Source: a virus
Taxonomy: Duplodnaviria; Heunggongvirae; Uroviricota; Caudoviricetes
Reading direction: 5' to 3' (one strand)
IMG/VR virus record: IMGVR_UViG_2728369188_000007
Location: 1 to 4,034 of that record
Length of the DNA stretch: 4,034 nucleotides
Below are positions 1 through 3,948 of this stretch, piece after piece; within the stretch, counting starts at the first letter, position 1; every line of letters starts with the position of its first letter. The notes beneath the pieces were generated by a model that was given only the letters and a program-made list of their open reading frames with translations, searched no databases and was not told the DNA's origin. Made by a program: the position numbers and the translations under genes.

Positions 1-1053
1 TTACGGGGTAATGCCAACCGCTGCCGCCACTTTGTCGCCACTTGGCAGCGTTGCCAGAGGATTGAAACGGAGCGCCGTTTCCAGATGATCCGGTGCCAGA
101 TGTGCGTAACGCATAGTCATTTTTATATCGTGGTGTCCGAGAATTTTTTGTAAGGCCAGAATGTTTCCACCCGACATCATGAAGTGCGCCGCAAACGTAT
201 GGCGCAGAACGTGTGTGAGTTGACCGCGAGGGAGCACGATAGACGTTTTTTCCATCACGGATAAAAATTGAAAATAGCAGTCTGTGAAGAAATTGAACCC
301 ATCAAGCGCCATGATCTCTTCGTAAAGCTCTTTACTGATAGGGATGCTTCTGTTTTTCTTCCCCTTCGTTCTTACAAAGGTAATTCGGTATTTGGTCACC
401 TGTGAACGAGTAAGATTTACGGCTTCTCGCCAGCGTGCGCCTGTGCTTAAGCATATCTTAACTACCAGTGCCAGAATTGGGTCCTGACGTTTGCAATCAG
501 CCAGTAATTCAACAATCTGCTCATGGGTAAGCCATGCCATCTCTTTTTCTGCGATGGTGAATTTTCGCATGTTCTCCAGTGGGTTCGGATACGACCATTC
601 GCCCAGGCGGGATAGTTCGCTAAAAACACTACTTAGATAGCTTTGCTCCAGGTTAATGGTGACCGGGCTTGCTCCTTTCTTCCATTTCTCGCTGAAGTAG
701 ATCTCACCTGTCAGGCGTTTATCTCGATAGTGGGCAAACATTTTAGAGGTTAGATCAGTTGCAAGGGGATTGCCCAGAGCGTCAACCATCAGCAGCAATT
801 TGTCATAGACATGCTGCCCAGCAGTCAGTGATTTACCATGTAGTTTGAACCATAGCTCAACCACGTCTTTCAGTGTTCGACGATCCACTGATTCACCTAG
901 CCAGGGCTTTGCTTCGGTTTCTTCCATCGTGTGACGCTCAAAAGCCAGTGCTTCGCCTTTGGTGGCGAATTGTTTACGCACACGACGCCCACTACGTCCG
1001 GCGGGGTAACATTCGCAAAGCCATTTTCCTGTGGTGAGTTTTCGTACAGCCAT
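1..1053 (-). CDS. int: Phage tyrosine integrase (P2/186 family), 350 aa from the ATG at 1053
   Basis: The ORF track gives a 376-aa frame 1..1131. The translation carries tyrosine-recombinase motifs: TGAR, HVLRHTF (H-x-x-R box) and the C-terminal LGHHDIKMTMRYAH with the catalytic Tyr. The internal Met (MAVRKLTTGKW...) at 1053 is preferred as start because GGAGGG lies 8 nt upstream on the coding strand (plus-strand ccctcc at 1062-1067); the ATG at 1131 has no such site. Stop TAA is at 1-3. Confidence 0.88.
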   Translation of the reverse strand: MAVRKLTTGKWLCECYPAGRSGRRVRKQFATKGEALAFERHTMEETEAKPWLGESVDRRTLKDVVELWFKLHGKSLTAGQHVYDKLLLMVDALGNPLATDLTSKMFAHYRDKRLTGEIYFSEKWKKGASPVTINLEQSYLSSVFSELSRLGEWSYPNPLENMRKFTIAEKEMAWLTHEQIVELLADCKRQDPILALVVKICLSTGARWREAVNLTRSQVTKYRITFVRTKGKKNRSIPISKELYEEIMALDGFNFFTDCYFQFLSVMEKTSIVLPRGQLTHVLRHTFAAHFMMSGGNILALQKILGHHDIKMTMRYAHLAPDHLETALRFNPLATLPSGDKVAAAVGITP

Positions 1054-1077
1054 AAAAAATGCCCTCCAATAGAGAGC

Positions 1078-1106
1078 ATTTTTACTGTATGTATAACCAG
1101 TGTCAA
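1078..1106 (-). promoter_or_regulatory. Candidate sigma70 promoter directly upstream of int (-35 TTGACA, 17-bp spacer, -10 AAAAAT on the minus strand)
   Basis: Plus-strand tgtcaa at 1101-1106 is a perfect TTGACA on the minus strand; 17 bp downstream in the direction of transcription, plus-strand attttt at 1078-1083 gives AAAAAT (4 of 6 matches to TATAAT). The predicted start would lie a few nt before the int RBS. Sequence-only prediction. Confidence 0.25.
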
Positions 1107-1241
1107 TGTATGAAATCCTGCGACCATACATCTCACTGAAGCCATAATGAAGTAGGCTATTCTTTTTGCTATGTGATCATGTAACTTTTGCGGTTAACCT
1201 GTGGCTCATTTTTATTTTAGGCGCAGATATAAAAGCAAAAG

Positions 1242-1433
1242 TTATCGTGAGTTTTTAGTACAGATTTTTTTGGATTTACTAATAGTTCCATCATTGCAAA
1301 CGAATTTGCCATCAGAGGTACAGTGAGAAACACCTCCCTTTTTCCCTGAGCAGGGATAATTTCTAGCATAGGTAGCTAGTGGGTTTAATAACAAAGAACA
1401 TGACAAAACCACAAAAAATACCTTACCAAGCAT
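1242..1433 (-). CDS. Small predicted secreted peptide: 63-aa precursor with a roughly 23-aa Sec-type signal peptide and a roughly 40-aa cationic, 4-Cys mature part; no recognised family
   Basis: ATG at 1433 is preceded by GGGAGG with a 5-nt spacer (plus-strand cctccc at 1439-1444) and lies 15 nt downstream of the cI stop in the same orientation. N-terminus [23 protein letters not shown] has a basic n-region, a hydrophobic core and a possible cleavage site after ATYA. The remainder [40 protein letters not shown] has 4 Cys, 9 Lys/Arg and 2 Asp. Local GC is about 32-37%. Confidence 0.5.
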
Positions 1434-1448
1434 AATTTCCTCCCGGTA

Positions 1449-2018
1449 CTATTTAACATACTTGACTGTTAAACTTATAATTTTACCAATTATTTCAATG
1501 TCTTCTATCTTACATTCAAAGGCTCTGTTTCCACCCTCGACGAAGATTCTTCCACCGGGTAAACGAGTAATGTCACGGATCGTTATTTCGCCATCAATAC
1601 TTATTACCCATTTACCATCACGTATATCATCAAATTCCTTATCACAAATAAATTCAGAATTATTATCTGTGATTACAAAAAGATTCTTGAATGCCGACGG
1701 TAGAAATTCTCTATCGAAAATATAAAAACCGTCTTCACACAAGGCCCCATCAGATAATACATATTTAGCAACTTCCATAGTATTTGTATTACCTGAAGTT
1801 TGCTTTGAACCATGCCCGGTTGTGAGCCAATTAAGCGAGGTGCCTGTTTCAAGGGCGCACTGGATTACCCATTCTGCTGGGAATGAGTCACGCATGTAGC
1901 GTGTGGCGAGTGTACTTTTAGAGATTCCTAAATGATCGCACAACGCCTGTCGAGTCTTGAATCCATAAGCTTCTACCATGCGCTCTATGGCGCCTCGTCC
2001 GCCTTTCTCCAAATTCAT
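1449..2018 (-). CDS. cI: 186 CI-type immunity repressor (N-terminal HTH DNA-binding domain, C-terminal oligomerisation domain), 189 aa from the ATG at 2018
   Basis: Translation matches the 186 CI pattern as I recall it: EAYGF...L..H..I..S.L..RY.R....CALETG..L.WL.TG.G in the N-terminal part and G.W...I.G.I.IR..T.LPG....V.GG...FEC.I.DI in the C-terminal part. ATG at 2016-2018 has GGAG 5 nt upstream (plus-strand ctcc at 2024-2027). The ORF track extends to a GTG at 2024, which is less likely. Stop TAA is at 1449-1451. Confidence 0.85.
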   Translation of the reverse strand: MNLEKGGRGAIERMVEAYGFKTRQALCDHLGISKSTLATRYMRDSFPAEWVIQCALETGTSLNWLTTGHGSKQTSGNTNTMEVAKYVLSDGALCEDGFYIFDREFLPSAFKNLFVITDNNSEFICDKEFDDIRDGKWVISIDGEITIRDITRLPGGRIFVEGGNRAFECKIEDIEIIGKIISLTVKYVK

Positions 2019-2424: not shown

Positions 2425-2907
2425 CCACATTTTGATGAAGCCTGTCGTGCATTTGCACTGCGCCACAATCTGGTGCAACTGGCAGAACGTGCAGGCATGA
2501 ATGTGCAGATTCTGCGGAACAAGCTGAACCCAGCTCAGCCTCATTTATTAACCGCACCAGAAATCTGGCTGCTTACCGATCTGACTGAAGATTCAACGCT
2601 GGTAGATGGTTTTCTGGCACAGATTCATTGTCTGCCATGTGTACCGATTAATGAGGTGGCAAAAGAGAAACTGCCACATTACGTCATGAGTGCAACCGCA
2701 GAGATCGGGCGTGTTGCTGCAGGTGCGGTGTCTGGCGATGTAAAAACCTGTGCCGGTCGTCGTGATGCTATCAGCAGCATTAACTCTGTAACACGACTGA
2801 TGGCGCTGGCGGCTGTTTCATTGCAGGCCCGTTTACAGGCTAATCCTGCGATGGCGAGTGCAGTTGATACCGTGACTGGCCTCGGTGCTTCATTTGGTTT
2901 GCTGTGA
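2398..2907 (+). CDS. cII: 186 CII-type transcriptional activator of lysogenic establishment, 169 aa
   Basis: Translation [24 protein letters not shown]...[17 protein letters not shown]...[26 protein letters not shown]...[22 protein letters not shown] closely matches 186 CII as I recall it, and the 169-aa length from the ATG at 2398 agrees. RBS AGAGG lies 8 nt upstream. The ORF track start at 2392 adds MT and is less likely. Stop TGA is at 2905-2907. Confidence 0.85.
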
Positions 2908-2914
2908 GGTGCTT

Positions 2915-3115
2915 ATGCTGACGAAAGAACCATCATTTGCATCGCTGCTGGTTAAACAAAGCCCGGCAATGCATTACGGTCACGGCTGGATCATGGGGGA
3001 GGATGGTAAACGCTGGCATCCGTGCCGTTCACAAGATGAATTGCTGGCAGAACTATCTACGAAAAAACGGGGGAACAAATGGCTATTGAAGGCACTGCGG
3101 CGACTGTTCCATTAA
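2915..3115 (+). CDS. fil: Small basic protein in the 186 fil position (Fil-like), 66 aa
   Basis: ATG at 2915 with GAGG 5 nt upstream, starting 8 nt after the cII stop. The ORF track begins at an upstream GTG (2885) that overlaps cII and is rejected. The Fil assignment rests on synteny (gene immediately after cII) and a vague recollection of Fil-family proteins. Confidence 0.55.
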   Translation: MLTKEPSFASLLVKQSPAMHYGHGWIMGEDGKRWHPCRSQDELLAELSTKKRGNKWLLKALRRLFH

Positions 3116-3420
3116 GCCCCGGTGAACGCCTGAATGGACTTAATCACATTGCGGAGTTAAGGGCGAAAATTTTTGGCCTGAATATTGAGTCAGAGCTTGA
3201 GCGGTTTATTAAAGATATGCGTGATTCACGGGATATTAATAGCGAACAAAATAAACGGGCACTGGCTGCCATATTCTTTATGGCAAAAATTCCAGCTGAA
3301 CGTCATAGCATCAGCATTAATGAGCTGACCACTGACGAAAAGCGGGAGTTGATTAAAGCAATGAATCATTTTCGTGCAGTGGTGAGCTTATTTCCCAGAC
3401 GGCTAACCATGCCGAATTAA
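3079..3420 (+). CDS. Hypothetical early-region protein, 113 aa
   Basis: ATG at 3079 is preceded by GGGGGA with a 4-nt spacer. The frame overlaps the 3' end of the Fil-like gene by 37 nt in a different frame, and there is no plausible downstream in-frame start before residue 47. Same strand and operon as the flanking genes. Sits where 186 carries dhr, but no motif was recognised. Confidence 0.6.
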   Translation: MAIEGTAATVPLSPGERLNGLNHIAELRAKIFGLNIESELERFIKDMRDSRDINSEQNKRALAAIFFMAKIPAERHSISINELTTDEKRELIKAMNHFRAVVSLFPRRLTMPN

Positions 3421-3487
3421 CCAACTAATGAAATTAATGGCGTAAACCCGCCGGGCATCCCTTTATCTAAATTCAGGAGAATTGATT

Positions 3488-3709
3488 ATGCGTAATATTG
3501 AAACCCTCTCGACCAAAACCGGACCGGATGACGCAGGGCTTAATATTTTACTGACAGAGGCTCGTCTGGAAGAACGCCGGGCAAGGGCTGAAGCAATGGC
3601 AGCTCGCCTTGATAGCCTGGCGTGTCATATCACATCCCGCCAGCTAACCCACGTCGAAGCGGCAGAACTGCTTCGTGTGACTGCTGAAGCAATCCAGAAC
3701 GAAGCGTAG
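3488..3709 (+). CDS. Hypothetical small protein, 73 aa, predicted helical, Ala/Arg/Glu-rich
   Basis: ATG at 3488 with AGGAGA 7 nt upstream (3475-3480). The ORF track begins at a TTG at 3482, which is less likely. Ordinary early-region position between the 113-aa ORF and the TraR-like gene. Confidence 0.6.
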   Translation: MRNIETLSTKTGPDDAGLNILLTEARLEERRARAEAMAARLDSLACHITSRQLTHVEAAELLRVTAEAIQNEA

Positions 3710-3720
3710 GAGATCCACTA

Positions 3721-3948
3721 ATGGCTGATGCAATGGATCTCGTACAGCAGCGCGTTGAAGAAGAACGCCAACGCCATATCCGTGCTGCCCGTGCCAAAAC
3801 GCCGGGCGTGTCCCGCGTGCTTTGCATTGATTGTGAAGCGCCAATTCCGCCAGCACGCCGCCGTGCCATTCCGGGTGTGCAGCTTTGCATTACCTGCCAG
3901 GAAATCGCAGAGCTGAAAGGCAAACATTACAACGGAGGTGCTGTATGA
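3721..3948 (+). CDS. TraR/DksA-family C4 zinc-finger protein, 75 aa
   Basis: Translation contains CIDC-x17-CITC (CxxC-x17-CxxC), the DksA/TraR zinc-finger signature, after a short acidic/basic helical N-terminus. AGGAGA lies 8 nt upstream of the ATG at 3721. Stop TGA at 3946-3948 overlaps the next start codon. Confidence 0.8.
   Translation: MADAMDLVQQRVEEERQRHIRAARAKTPGVSRVLCIDCEAPIPPARRRAIPGVQLCITCQEIAELKGKHYNGGAV

What the first reader, a model, noticed from the sequence alone, without database searches (positions are those of the whole stretch)
1242..1433. Cationic 4-cysteine secreted peptide encoded between cI and int in the lysogenic operon
A 63-codon ORF with a strong RBS sits 15 nt after the cI stop and before int, in the same orientation, so it should be expressed in the lysogen. 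It encodes a Sec-type signal peptide followed by a roughly 40-residue mature peptide with 4 Cys, 9 Lys/Arg and 2 Asp (net charge about +7). That architecture resembles small disulfide-bonded exported peptides (toxin-like, antimicrobial or signalling), not a phage structural or regulatory protein. I do not recall a gene at this position in the 186/P2 core layout, and the locus lies in a block of about 35% GC against roughly 50% in the flanking genes, consistent with an acquired cargo gene. Function cannot be assigned from sequence alone.
Basis: partly seen in the sequence, partly recalled or inferred. Interest (0 to 1): 0.68.

Follow-up and report, generated by a model that had tools for sequence, protein, structure and literature searches.

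The report
Prophage copy of secreted YdcA mini-protein
The ORF is a real, strongly conserved gene for a small exported, lysine-rich, four-cysteine protein of the already catalogued but functionally unknown YdcA family, carried just after the repressor gene of a 186-like E. coli prophage in a slot that sister prophages fill with anti-phage defence genes.

Summary
A 63-codon ORF lies on the minus strand at 1242-1433, with a GGAGG ribosome-binding site 15 nt after the cI stop. It encodes a Sec-type signal peptide and a 40-residue mature peptide with 4 Cys and net charge +7.

It is not an orphan. It passes the curated NCBIfam YdcA model and matches phrog_6000 and Pfam PF27300. Newer RefSeq records call it "YdcA family protein". 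The DNA occurs in 598 of 5426 complete E. coli genomes.

Selection is purifying. All 94 fetched copies are intact, and 12 of 14 polymorphic codons are silent.

Phage 186 has no gene between cI and int. Sister prophages at the same attachment site carry Old, PD-Lambda-1 or a KAP NTPase there. Yersinia and Haemophilus peduoviruses, including an unannotated ORF in HP2, also place a YdcA gene right after cI.

Function is unknown. The module is repeatedly fused to, or in an operon with, secreted nucleases of three folds. It also resembles one lobe of Legionella Dis2. My best guess is a periplasmic polyanion (DNA)-binding or envelope-docking module expressed in the lysogen. A diffusible toxin or antimicrobial peptide is unlikely.

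Known family, moderate interest.

The parts
1242..1433 (-). YdcA-family gene (63 codons plus TAA stop at 1242-1244)
   Evidence: ORF list. NCBIfam NF007463 E = 1.3e-33, above cutoff. phrog_6000 E = 3e-34. Precomputed Pfam PF27300 'YdcA'. All 94 fetched copies intact, with 12 of 14 polymorphic codons silent.
1365..1433 (-). Signal peptide, codons 1-23 ([23 protein letters not shown]); predicted signal peptidase I cleavage after A23
   Evidence: Hydrophobic core and T-Y-A c-region. A23 is invariant or nearly so across the family while the rest of the leader varies. There is no lipobox, and C12 is not conserved.
1245..1364 (-). Mature peptide, codons 24-63: [40 protein letters not shown] (4 Cys, net +7)
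   Evidence: Composition. Family-invariant P27, K32, C38, F44, C46, G49, S52, S54, K55, C58. AF2 core pLDDT 84-91 with a beta-hairpin at 35-38/44-46.
1439..1444 (-). Shine-Dalgarno GGGAGG, 5 nt before the ATG; the whole cI-ydcA spacer is 1434-1448
   Evidence: Read directly from the sequence.
1449..2018 (-). 186-type cI repressor, upstream cistron of the same operon (alternative GTG start at 2024)
   Evidence: Pfam Phage_CI_repr 2.8e-33 and Phage_CI_C 2.7e-27. RefSeq annotation. No promoter-like or terminator-like site on the minus strand between cI and the ORF.
1182..1244 (-). Long stem-loop directly after the ydcA stop (UAACUUUUGC...GCAAAAGUUA); part of the cargo block, function unknown
   Evidence: RNAfold of 1054-1245(-): -52 kcal/mol, z = -4.2. 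Present in the E. coli B allele.
1054..1113 (-). Conserved int leader, which marks the int-side boundary of the cargo slot. It holds a promoter-like TTGACA-17-AAAAAT (1106-1078) and a hairpin plus U-tract (1055-1083) that buries the int Shine-Dalgarno GGAGGG (1062-1067).
   Evidence: Promoter scan. Fold. Conserved across slot variants with co-varying hairpin arms. Partial megablast hits end near 1113.
1..1053 (-). Tyrosine integrase, downstream gene
   Evidence: Pfam Int_N and Phage_integrase. RefSeq annotation, with the prophage end next to rcdA.

Best explanation
The ORF encodes a YdcA-family mini-protein carried as accessory cargo in the lysogenic operon of a 186-like (Peduoviridae) prophage integrated next to rcdA.

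Shown:
- It is a genuine coding gene under strong purifying selection.
- It sits 15 nt after cI on the same strand, with its own strong ribosome-binding site.
- No promoter-like or terminator-like consensus site separates it from cI.
- The cI-int interval is a swap site that holds known defence genes in sister prophages.
- The same cI -> YdcA -> int order recurs in Yersinia and Pasteurellaceae peduoviruses.

Inferred:
- It is co-transcribed with cI in the lysogen.
- It is exported by Sec and cleaved after A23.
- Its four Cys are oxidised to two disulfides, giving a 4.3 kDa, strongly basic beta-hairpin knot in the periplasm.

Most likely mechanism (inference): the conserved Lys-rich core is a binding module for a polyanionic ligand outside the cytoplasm, most probably DNA. 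The argument is that the same module is repeatedly fused to, or in an operon with, secreted nucleases of three unrelated folds. In the lysogen it would act on nucleic acid or the envelope in the periplasm, plausibly helping to keep out incoming phage or foreign DNA, given the company it keeps in a defence hotspot.

Confidence is about 0.9 for identity, export and cargo status. It is about 0.3 for the DNA/polyanion-binding, exclusion-type mechanism. The figure given is a blend.
For: Family membership: NF007463 at 114.6 bits against a cutoff of 93, phrog_6000, PF27300 'YdcA', and RefSeq 'YdcA family protein'.

Selection: the window and E. coli B alleles differ by 11 synonymous and 2 non-synonymous codons, with none changed in residues 25-63. 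All 94 fetched copies are intact. The gene is retained in degraded prophages.

Operon layout: 15-nt spacer with GGAGG; no minus-strand promoter or terminator consensus between cI and the ORF. In 186, pL drives cI-int-orf69 as one lysogenic operon (record annotation). In HP2 the homologue's ATG overlaps the cI stop.

Slot variability: PD-Lambda-1 E = 3e-120, Old E = 6e-234 and PDC-S20 KAP NTPase E = 1e-171, with layouts.

Recurrence: 8-11 of 80 species-level loci show cI -> ydcA -> int. The mature peptide is 72-92% identical where the neighbouring cI is only 36-38% identical.

Nuclease link: fusions to Endonuclease_NS, SNase and PLDc_2. The gene is in an operon 7-9 nt upstream of a secreted SNase in three Brucella/Ochrobactrum species and lies near one in L175. 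A secreted OB-fold (PF12869) protein is a neighbour in HP2 and in an Acinetobacter plasmid.

Basic residues K32 and K55 are invariant, and K31 nearly so.
Against: - No experiment or transcript data were available, so expression in the lysogen and export are inferred.
- pL could not be located by consensus in this window.
- There is no PADLOC hit, and no conserved partner gene in most of the 80 loci.
- Most family members are stand-alone chromosomal genes with no phage link.
- Nuclease fusions would equally fit an anchoring or localisation module.
- Phage DNA normally crosses the periplasm inside a protein conduit, so a free DNA-binding peptide may never meet it.
- In Moraxella and Acinetobacter phages the gene lies among tail genes, not beside a repressor.
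- The only reported phenotype for E. coli ydcA is 3-hydroxypropionate sensitivity. The gene is also reported to be induced by acid. Both point to stress tolerance rather than DNA (PMC7642389).
Confidence: 0.45

Rival explanations
1. Envelope-docking adaptor. The module binds outer-membrane lipoproteins, OmpA/Pal-like proteins or peptidoglycan on the periplasmic face of the outer membrane, as its relative Dis2 does in the Legionella Dot/Icm cap. In nuclease fusions it would tether the enzyme to the cell. In the lysogen it would alter the envelope, for example by masking or stabilising a receptor, pilus or secretion complex.
For: Sequence similarity to Dis2/Lpg0823: phmmer E = 3.2e-5, profile E = 2.4e-4, both lobes aligned. 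A Dis2-like protein carries a precomputed PF27300 hit. hhalign gives E = 2e-4. Dis2 chains are the top two Foldseek hits. Dis2 contacts the lipoproteins DotC and DotD and the OmpA-like DotK near the outer membrane (PMC8486379, PMC12716638). A signal-peptide DUF3761 protein (a Pfam family that co-hits a YdcA-repeat protein) lies in a Halomonas phage lysis cassette.
Confidence: 0.25
2. Stress-tolerance factor. Like chromosomal ydcA, the prophage copy improves envelope tolerance to acid or organic acids, giving the lysogen a fitness benefit unrelated to phages or DNA.
For: Deletion of ydcA in E. coli W made cells sensitive to 300 mM 3-hydroxypropionate, and ydcA is reported as YdcI-controlled and induced at pH 5 (PMC7642389). 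K-12 ydcA lies next to rydC, an sRNA tied to acid resistance through cfa (PMC11340327).
Against: The phenotype was suppressed by yieP deletion and may reflect a polar effect on the adjacent rydC. No mechanism is known. It does not explain the nuclease fusions or the repeated placement after phage repressors.
Confidence: 0.12
3. Secreted toxin, antimicrobial or signalling peptide acting on other cells.
For: It is small, cationic and disulfide-rich with a signal peptide. A YdcA-family gene was listed among genes associated with antimicrobial-positive Pseudomonas protegens strains, without functional evidence (PMC13541209).
Against: A Sec leader reaches only the periplasm in a Gram-negative cell. 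There is no double-glycine leader, ABC exporter, immunity or lysis gene in the locus. The core occurs as a single-copy chromosomal gene in many Proteobacteria, in tandem repeats, and as the N-terminal domain of enzymes, which is domain behaviour rather than bacteriocin behaviour.
Confidence: 0.06
4. Neutral hitch-hiker: a gene fragment carried along with the cI allele, with no function in the prophage.
For: It shares the low-GC block with the cI C-terminal domain. About half of the prophages with this integrase lack it.
Against: Strong purifying selection and 94 of 94 intact copies. The mature core is far better conserved than the adjacent cI. It has a strong ribosome-binding site. It is retained in decayed prophages.
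Confidence: 0.03

Closest known systems
E. coli K-12 YdcA (b1419) and the YdcA family (Pfam PF27300; NCBIfam NF007462-NF007464, PRK10040; phrog_6000)
   Same: Same architecture: a Sec signal peptide followed by the core PCSGxKGG(V/I)SHC...GKFVCNDG(T/S)xSxSKKxC, with the same four Cys and a length of 56-63 aa. The window protein passes the curated NF007463 cutoff.
   Different: It is prophage-borne and sits in the cI operon, instead of at the chromosomal rydC-ydcA-hokB locus. The signal peptide is unrelated, and GC is 36% against 44%. The function of the family is unknown, so membership gives a name but no mechanism.
[quoted passage not shown]
   Same: A signal peptide followed by a Cys-stapled module with the motifs C-S-K-x-GG-(I/V)-x-x-C and (V/L)-C-N-(D/N)-G-x-x-S. 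It is the only solved structure with detectable sequence similarity and the top Foldseek hit.
   Different: Dis2 has two lobes and five disulfides, lacks the conserved lysines, and is part of a T4SS. The window protein is a single lobe with four Cys and no T4SS context. Statistical support is modest, and the structural match is not significant.
Genes co-transcribed with the repressor in prophages, such as lambda rexAB downstream of cI and P2 old, tin and fun (established knowledge, not tested here)
   Same: An accessory gene placed so that the maintenance promoter expresses it in the lysogen. In sister prophages the same slot holds Old and PD-Lambda-1.
   Different: Those are cytoplasmic or membrane proteins with demonstrated exclusion phenotypes. 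This is a 4 kDa periplasmic peptide with no PADLOC match and no known phenotype.
Haemophilus phage HP2/S2 lysogenic operon (cI - unannotated ORF - orf1(S) - int)
   Same: A 60-aa YdcA homologue sits immediately after a 191-aa 186-type cI and before int. Its ATG overlaps the cI stop.
   Different: The cI proteins are only 32-38% identical. HP2 has an extra secreted OB-fold gene (PF12869) before int. The HP2 ORF is not annotated in the GenBank record.
DUF3761 (PF12587) and the PBCV basic adaptor domain (PF08789)
   Same: Short Cys- and Lys-rich motifs of the KGG / CxDGxxSxS type. Precomputed PF12587 co-hits a three-repeat YdcA protein. PF08789 hits two longer family members.
   Different: The window protein itself matches neither model. 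I did not determine which region of those proteins the hits cover. Both families are also of unknown function.

Membership tests
YdcA family (NCBIfam NF007463 / Pfam PF27300) | Whole-protein score above the curated model cutoff | tested here: met
   NF007463: 114.6 bits against a cutoff of 93, E = 1.3e-33, profile positions 1-58 of 58. Precomputed PF27300 on the identical protein P0001. The local Pfam copy lacks this model, so there was no hit there.
YdcA family (NCBIfam NF007463 / Pfam PF27300) | Signal peptide followed by the conserved four-Cys core PCSGxKGG..C..F.C.DG..S.SK..C | tested here: met
   Alignments A1 and A2: C38, C46, C58, K32, F44, G49, S52, S54 and K55 are invariant; C28 is invariant or nearly so. 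Same layout as K-12 YdcA.
Member of the 186-type lysogenic (cI) operon | Same strand as cI and int, close spacing, no intervening promoter or terminator | tested here: met
   15-nt spacer. No minus-strand promoter-like or terminator-like site between 1434 and 2024. The 186 record documents the pL-cI-int-orf69 operon.
Member of the 186-type lysogenic (cI) operon | Transcript and protein detected in the lysogen | not testable with these tools
   No expression data were reachable. Literature searches found none.
Dis2 (Lpg0823)-type T4SS cap component | Two tandem lobes pinned by five disulfides | tested here: not met
   Single module with four Cys in the mature part. Dis2 is described as having two lobes and five disulfides (PMC8486379).
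Dis2 (Lpg0823)-type T4SS cap component | Encoded in a genome with, and assembled into, a Dot/Icm-type T4SS | tested here: not met
   The locus is a P2/186-like prophage next to rcdA, with no T4SS genes within 6 kb. Assembly itself is not testable here.
Dis2 (Lpg0823)-type T4SS cap component | Significant sequence or fold similarity | tested here: inconclusive
   [not shown]
Bacterial lipoprotein | Lipobox [LVI][ASTVI][GAS]C, with a conserved Cys at +1 | tested here: not met
   The only candidate is V-L-S-C12. It has L at position -2 and lies too close to the N-terminus. That column holds G, S, I, A or T in homologues.
Bacteriocin / microcin-type secreted peptide | Dedicated leader (double-glycine) plus exporter and immunity genes in the locus | tested here: not met
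   Sec-type leader. The neighbours are cI and int only.
Known anti-phage defence or superinfection-exclusion proteins (PADLOC-DB 2.0) | Match to a defence-system model | tested here: not met
   No family at E <= 0.01, whereas the genes occupying the same slot in sister prophages match Old, PD-Lambda-1 and PDC-S20.

The most novel reading that the evidence does not exclude
The YdcA core would be a previously unrecognised extracytoplasmic DNA-binding mini-domain. It would be disulfide-stapled and Lys-rich, used by secreted nucleases as a substrate clamp, and present in degenerate tandem form in the T4SS cap protein Dis2. On this reading, P2/186/HP1-type temperate phages across Enterobacterales and Pasteurellaceae co-express a free copy with their repressor as a periplasmic barrier to incoming DNA, that is, a new kind of superinfection or DNA-uptake exclusion. 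It would also give a function to the E. coli y-gene ydcA.
Probability: 0.15. Interest if true: 0.7.

Novelty: already known. Interest (0 to 1): 0.38.

Why it matters
In itself the gene is ordinary. It is an exact, already catalogued member of a named family, and current RefSeq records annotate it.

It still gives some useful leads.

1. The family has no known function, although it includes an E. coli K-12 gene and is widespread in Proteobacteria.

2. The mature peptide is held almost constant while the adjacent repressor and its own leader diverge. That implies a very conserved ligand.

3. The repeated fusion or operon link to secreted nucleases gives a concrete, cheap hypothesis to test: DNA or polyanion binding.

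4. The likely relationship to Legionella Dis2 has not been noted in the Dis2 papers, which describe Dis2 as Legionella-specific.

5. The cI-int junction of this very common E. coli prophage lineage turns out to be a defence-gene hotspot (Old, PD-Lambda-1, KAP NTPase). That makes a lysogen-expressed periplasmic peptide in the same slot a reasonable candidate for a lysogenic-conversion or exclusion factor.

6. HP2 and several Acinetobacter and Moraxella phage records lack an annotation for this ORF.

Tried and rejected
- **Local Pfam-A scan:** no real hit, only GULLO2-like at E = 0.076. The family model PF27300 is newer than the local copy.
- **Megablast of the locus against deposited phage genomes:** no match. 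The prophage type has not been deposited as a phage.
- **PADLOC:** no hit.
- **Disulfide pairing:** model coordinates are not exposed, so it could not be checked.
- **Rfam on the window:** nothing.
- **Conserved operon partner:** upstream and downstream neighbours in 80 species-level loci are heterogeneous. The roughly 240-aa genes after ydcA in Acinetobacter plasmids, Moraxella and HP2 are at best weakly related.
- **Lipoprotein reading:** rejected, no lipobox.
- **Bacteriocin reading:** rejected on locus content and domain behaviour.
- **Locating pL in this window:** failed, both by consensus and by alignment to 186.
- **Literature:** searches for YdcA, ydcI, prophage, the WP accessions, PF27300 and DUF3761 found no functional study.
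- **The search for related loci on viral contigs:** returned only near-identical E. coli copies. These were useful for the intactness count but not for diversity.

Full report
**1. The observation**

The window is the immunity and early region of a 186-like (Peduoviridae) prophage. The genes, in window order, are:
- int, 1-1053 (-)
- the ORF in question, 1242-1433 (-)
- a 186-type cI, 1449-2018 (-)
- an apl/cox-like gene, then cII (CP76), fil, DUF5347, DUF2732 and a TraR/DksA zinc-finger gene on the + strand.

In a complete genome with an identical copy, the prophage end lies next to rcdA.

The ORF has 63 codons. The cI stop ends at 1449. A 15-nt spacer follows, with GGGAGG five nt before the ATG at 1433.

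The product starts with a Sec-type leader: K4, a hydrophobic stretch at 5-16, and a T-Y-A c-region. Family-wide conservation of A23 as the -1 residue points to cleavage after A23. The 40-residue mature part has four Cys, nine Lys/Arg and two Asp, with net charge +7 and pI 9.7. A fifth Cys lies in the leader, but it is not conserved and does not form a lipobox.

GC content is 31-37% from about 1100 to 1800, against 45-55% elsewhere. That block also covers the C-terminal two thirds of cI.

**2. It is a real gene**

The window allele and the E. coli B-lineage allele (C43(DE3)) differ at 13 codons. Eleven differences are synonymous. The two replacements, A20T and R24K, flank the cleavage site, and residues 25-63 are unchanged.

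All 94 fetched copies are intact. They comprise 7 DNA alleles and 3 protein alleles. Of 14 polymorphic codons, 12 are silent.

The exact protein is indexed in 19,603 blocks of the assembly collection. It persists in prophage remnants that have lost most other genes. The DNA of 1100-1500 is present in 598 of 5426 complete E. coli genomes. Rare frameshifted singletons do exist, for example P0008.

**3. What it is**

The protein passes the curated NCBIfam equivalog model NF007463 (PRK10040.1-2) at 114.6 bits against a cutoff of 93. It matches phrog_6000, a family of unknown function. The identical database protein carries Pfam PF27300, named YdcA. Recent RefSeq annotations already call it "YdcA family protein".

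E. coli K-12 YdcA (b1419, 57 aa) sits between rydC and hokB. It has the same core: [32 protein letters not shown].

A profile search of 1.84 billion representatives finds 450 clusters at E <= 1e-3. One genome per species gives 120 confirmed loci across alpha-, beta- and gamma-proteobacteria.

The leader varies freely, while the core is nearly fixed. P27, K32, C38, F44, C46, G49, S52, S54, K55 and C58 are invariant.

The literature gives no function. YdcA is described as a 57-aa predicted periplasmic protein of unknown function (PMC11340327). Deleting ydcA in E. coli W caused sensitivity to 3-hydroxypropionate, and ydcA is reported to be acid-induced (PMC7642389). Other searches found nothing.

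**4. The slot**

In phage 186 the cI stop overlaps the int start. The record documents pL driving cI-int-orf69 as the lysogenic operon.

The integrase of this window occurs in 1135 of 5426 complete E. coli genomes. About half of these carry the window-type cI-ydcA block. In the rest, homology stops about 60 nt upstream of int, near window position 1113, and the slot holds other genes together with a different cI allele:

| Slot content | Evidence |
|---|---|
| PD-Lambda-1 | E = 3e-120; |
| P2-type Old nuclease | E = 6e-234; |
| Unknown genes | |
| A second YdcA allele (61 aa) followed by a KAP NTPase, PDC-S20 | E = 1e-171; |

The cI-int junction is thus a cargo and defence hotspot.

YdcA, when present, is always the gene directly after cI. 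The same order, cI -> YdcA -> int, occurs in three Yersinia species, in Buttiauxella, and in Pasteurellaceae. It also occurs in Haemophilus phages HP2 and S2. There the 60-aa ORF is unannotated, its ATG overlaps the cI stop, and a secreted OB-fold protein follows before int.

Across these phages the cI proteins are 36-38% identical and the YdcA leaders 17-36% identical, yet the mature peptides are 72-92% identical.

In Moraxella and Acinetobacter siphophages the gene instead lies in the tail-gene region. On plasmids and chromosomes the neighbours are heterogeneous.

**5. Clues to mechanism**

(a) *Domain behaviour.* The core occurs alone, in two or three tandem copies, and as the N-terminal module, after a signal peptide, of larger proteins.

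(b) *Nucleases.* Seven of the 59 representatives of at least 100 aa have an identifiable second globular domain. Five of those seven are secreted nucleases from three unrelated folds: Endonuclease_NS (three), SNase (one) and the PLD-like PLDc_2 (one). Another Endonuclease_NS fusion appears in the second search and one in a Methylococcales genome. In three Brucella/Ochrobactrum species the gene lies 7-9 nt upstream of a secreted SNase gene, and in another genome it lies close to one. Secreted OB-fold (PF12869) proteins are neighbours in HP2 and in an Acinetobacter plasmid.

(c) *The only solved relative.* This is Legionella Dis2 (Lpg0823). The evidence is phmmer E = 3.2e-5 with both lobes aligned, profile E = 2.4e-4, a Dis2-like protein with a precomputed PF27300 hit, and hhalign E = 2e-4 at 46% probability. 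Dis2 is a two-lobe, five-disulfide protein. It sits under the outer membrane in the Dot/Icm cap and touches DotC, DotD and the OmpA-like DotK. It is dispensable for assembly (PMC8486379, PMC12716638). Those papers describe it as Legionella-specific.

**6. Interpretation**

*Firm.* This is a YdcA-family gene, almost certainly translated. It is laid out to be co-expressed with cI and exported to the periplasm, and it is carried as part of a swappable repressor-plus-cargo module.

*Inferred.* The invariant lysines, the disulfide-stapled mini-fold and the recurrent partnership with secreted nucleases point to a binding module for a polyanion outside the cytoplasm, DNA being the most economical candidate. 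The main rival is docking to outer-membrane or peptidoglycan components, as Dis2 does. These two cannot be separated in silico here.

What the free peptide does for a lysogen is unknown. Its position in a defence hotspot makes an exclusion role plausible, but PADLOC has no model for it and no phenotype exists. A stress-tolerance role like that hinted for chromosomal ydcA remains possible.

The toxin or antimicrobial reading is unlikely. The leader is Sec-only, there are no export or immunity genes, and the core behaves as a domain.

**7. Novelty and score**

The entity is already known as a catalogued family member, and the function of the family is not known. The new items from this work are contextual:
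- the conserved placement after cI in peduoviruses of two bacterial orders;
- the hotspot nature of the slot;
- the nuclease association;
- the probable Dis2 relationship.

Interest is moderate, at 0.38.

Noticed in passing
window 1054-1113 (minus strand): The int leader is conserved across all slot variants. It holds a promoter-like TTGACA-17-AAAAAT (1106-1078). It also holds a 13-bp hairpin plus U-tract (1055-1083) that ends at the int AUG and buries the int Shine-Dalgarno sequence. The hairpin arms co-vary between variants: GCTCTC/GGAGGGC, GCCCTC/GAGGGC and GTCCTC/GAGGAC. This may be a terminator or attenuator combined with RBS sequestration that limits int expression from the lysogenic transcript. 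The putative promoter would start inside the 5' arm and free the RBS. The terminator scan did not flag it.
   Followed up: partly
L004, L005, L008, L189-L192 (the cI-int interval of sister prophages at the rcdA attachment site): The cI-int junction of this E. coli prophage lineage is a defence hotspot. It holds P2-type Old, PD-Lambda-1 (annotated 'SNIPE associated'), the PDC-S20 KAP NTPase, and several unknown genes (342 + 226 aa; 314 aa). Each variant is paired with a different cI allele of 187-312 aa.
   Followed up: partly
L017, L019, L025, L027 (between int and rcdA): A second cargo slot lies between int and the attachment site. It holds DUF4917/PDC-S21, SocA_Panacea plus a 251-aa gene, or small 89-111 aa ORFs. 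In phage 186 the corresponding position holds orf69.
   Followed up: no
[not shown]
   Followed up: yes
PDB 7MUC/7MUD chain AN (Dis2/Lpg0823); P0229, P0230: Dis2 of the Legionella Dot/Icm cap is described in the literature as Legionella-specific with no structural relatives. It looks like a tandem, lysine-poor YdcA-type module, and a Dis2-like protein carries a precomputed PF27300 hit.
   Followed up: partly
L117, L120, L122 at 2986-3670; L128 at 2878-3936: In Brucella/Ochrobactrum oryzae, anthropi and pecoris, ydcA is followed after 7-9 nt by a secreted SNase gene. A Methylococcales genome has a YdcA-Endonuclease_NS fusion next to a second Endonuclease_NS paralogue.
   Followed up: partly
window 1100-1800: The low-GC block (31-37%) spans the YdcA gene, the spacer after it, and the C-terminal domain of cI. 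The cI helix-turn-helix end is about 50% GC. This suggests a mosaic joint inside cI.
   Followed up: no
window 1182-1244 (minus strand): A long stem-loop (10-bp outer stem UAACUUUUGC/GCAAAAGUUA) starts at the ydcA stop codon. It has no U-tract, so it is not a canonical terminator. It is conserved in the E. coli B allele.
   Followed up: no
L017 (E. coli C43(DE3), B lineage): The laboratory B strains (BL21, C43 and derivatives) carry a decayed copy of this prophage. cII and the replication endonuclease are truncated, but cI and YdcA are intact. Public BL21 expression data could therefore answer the expression question.
   Followed up: no
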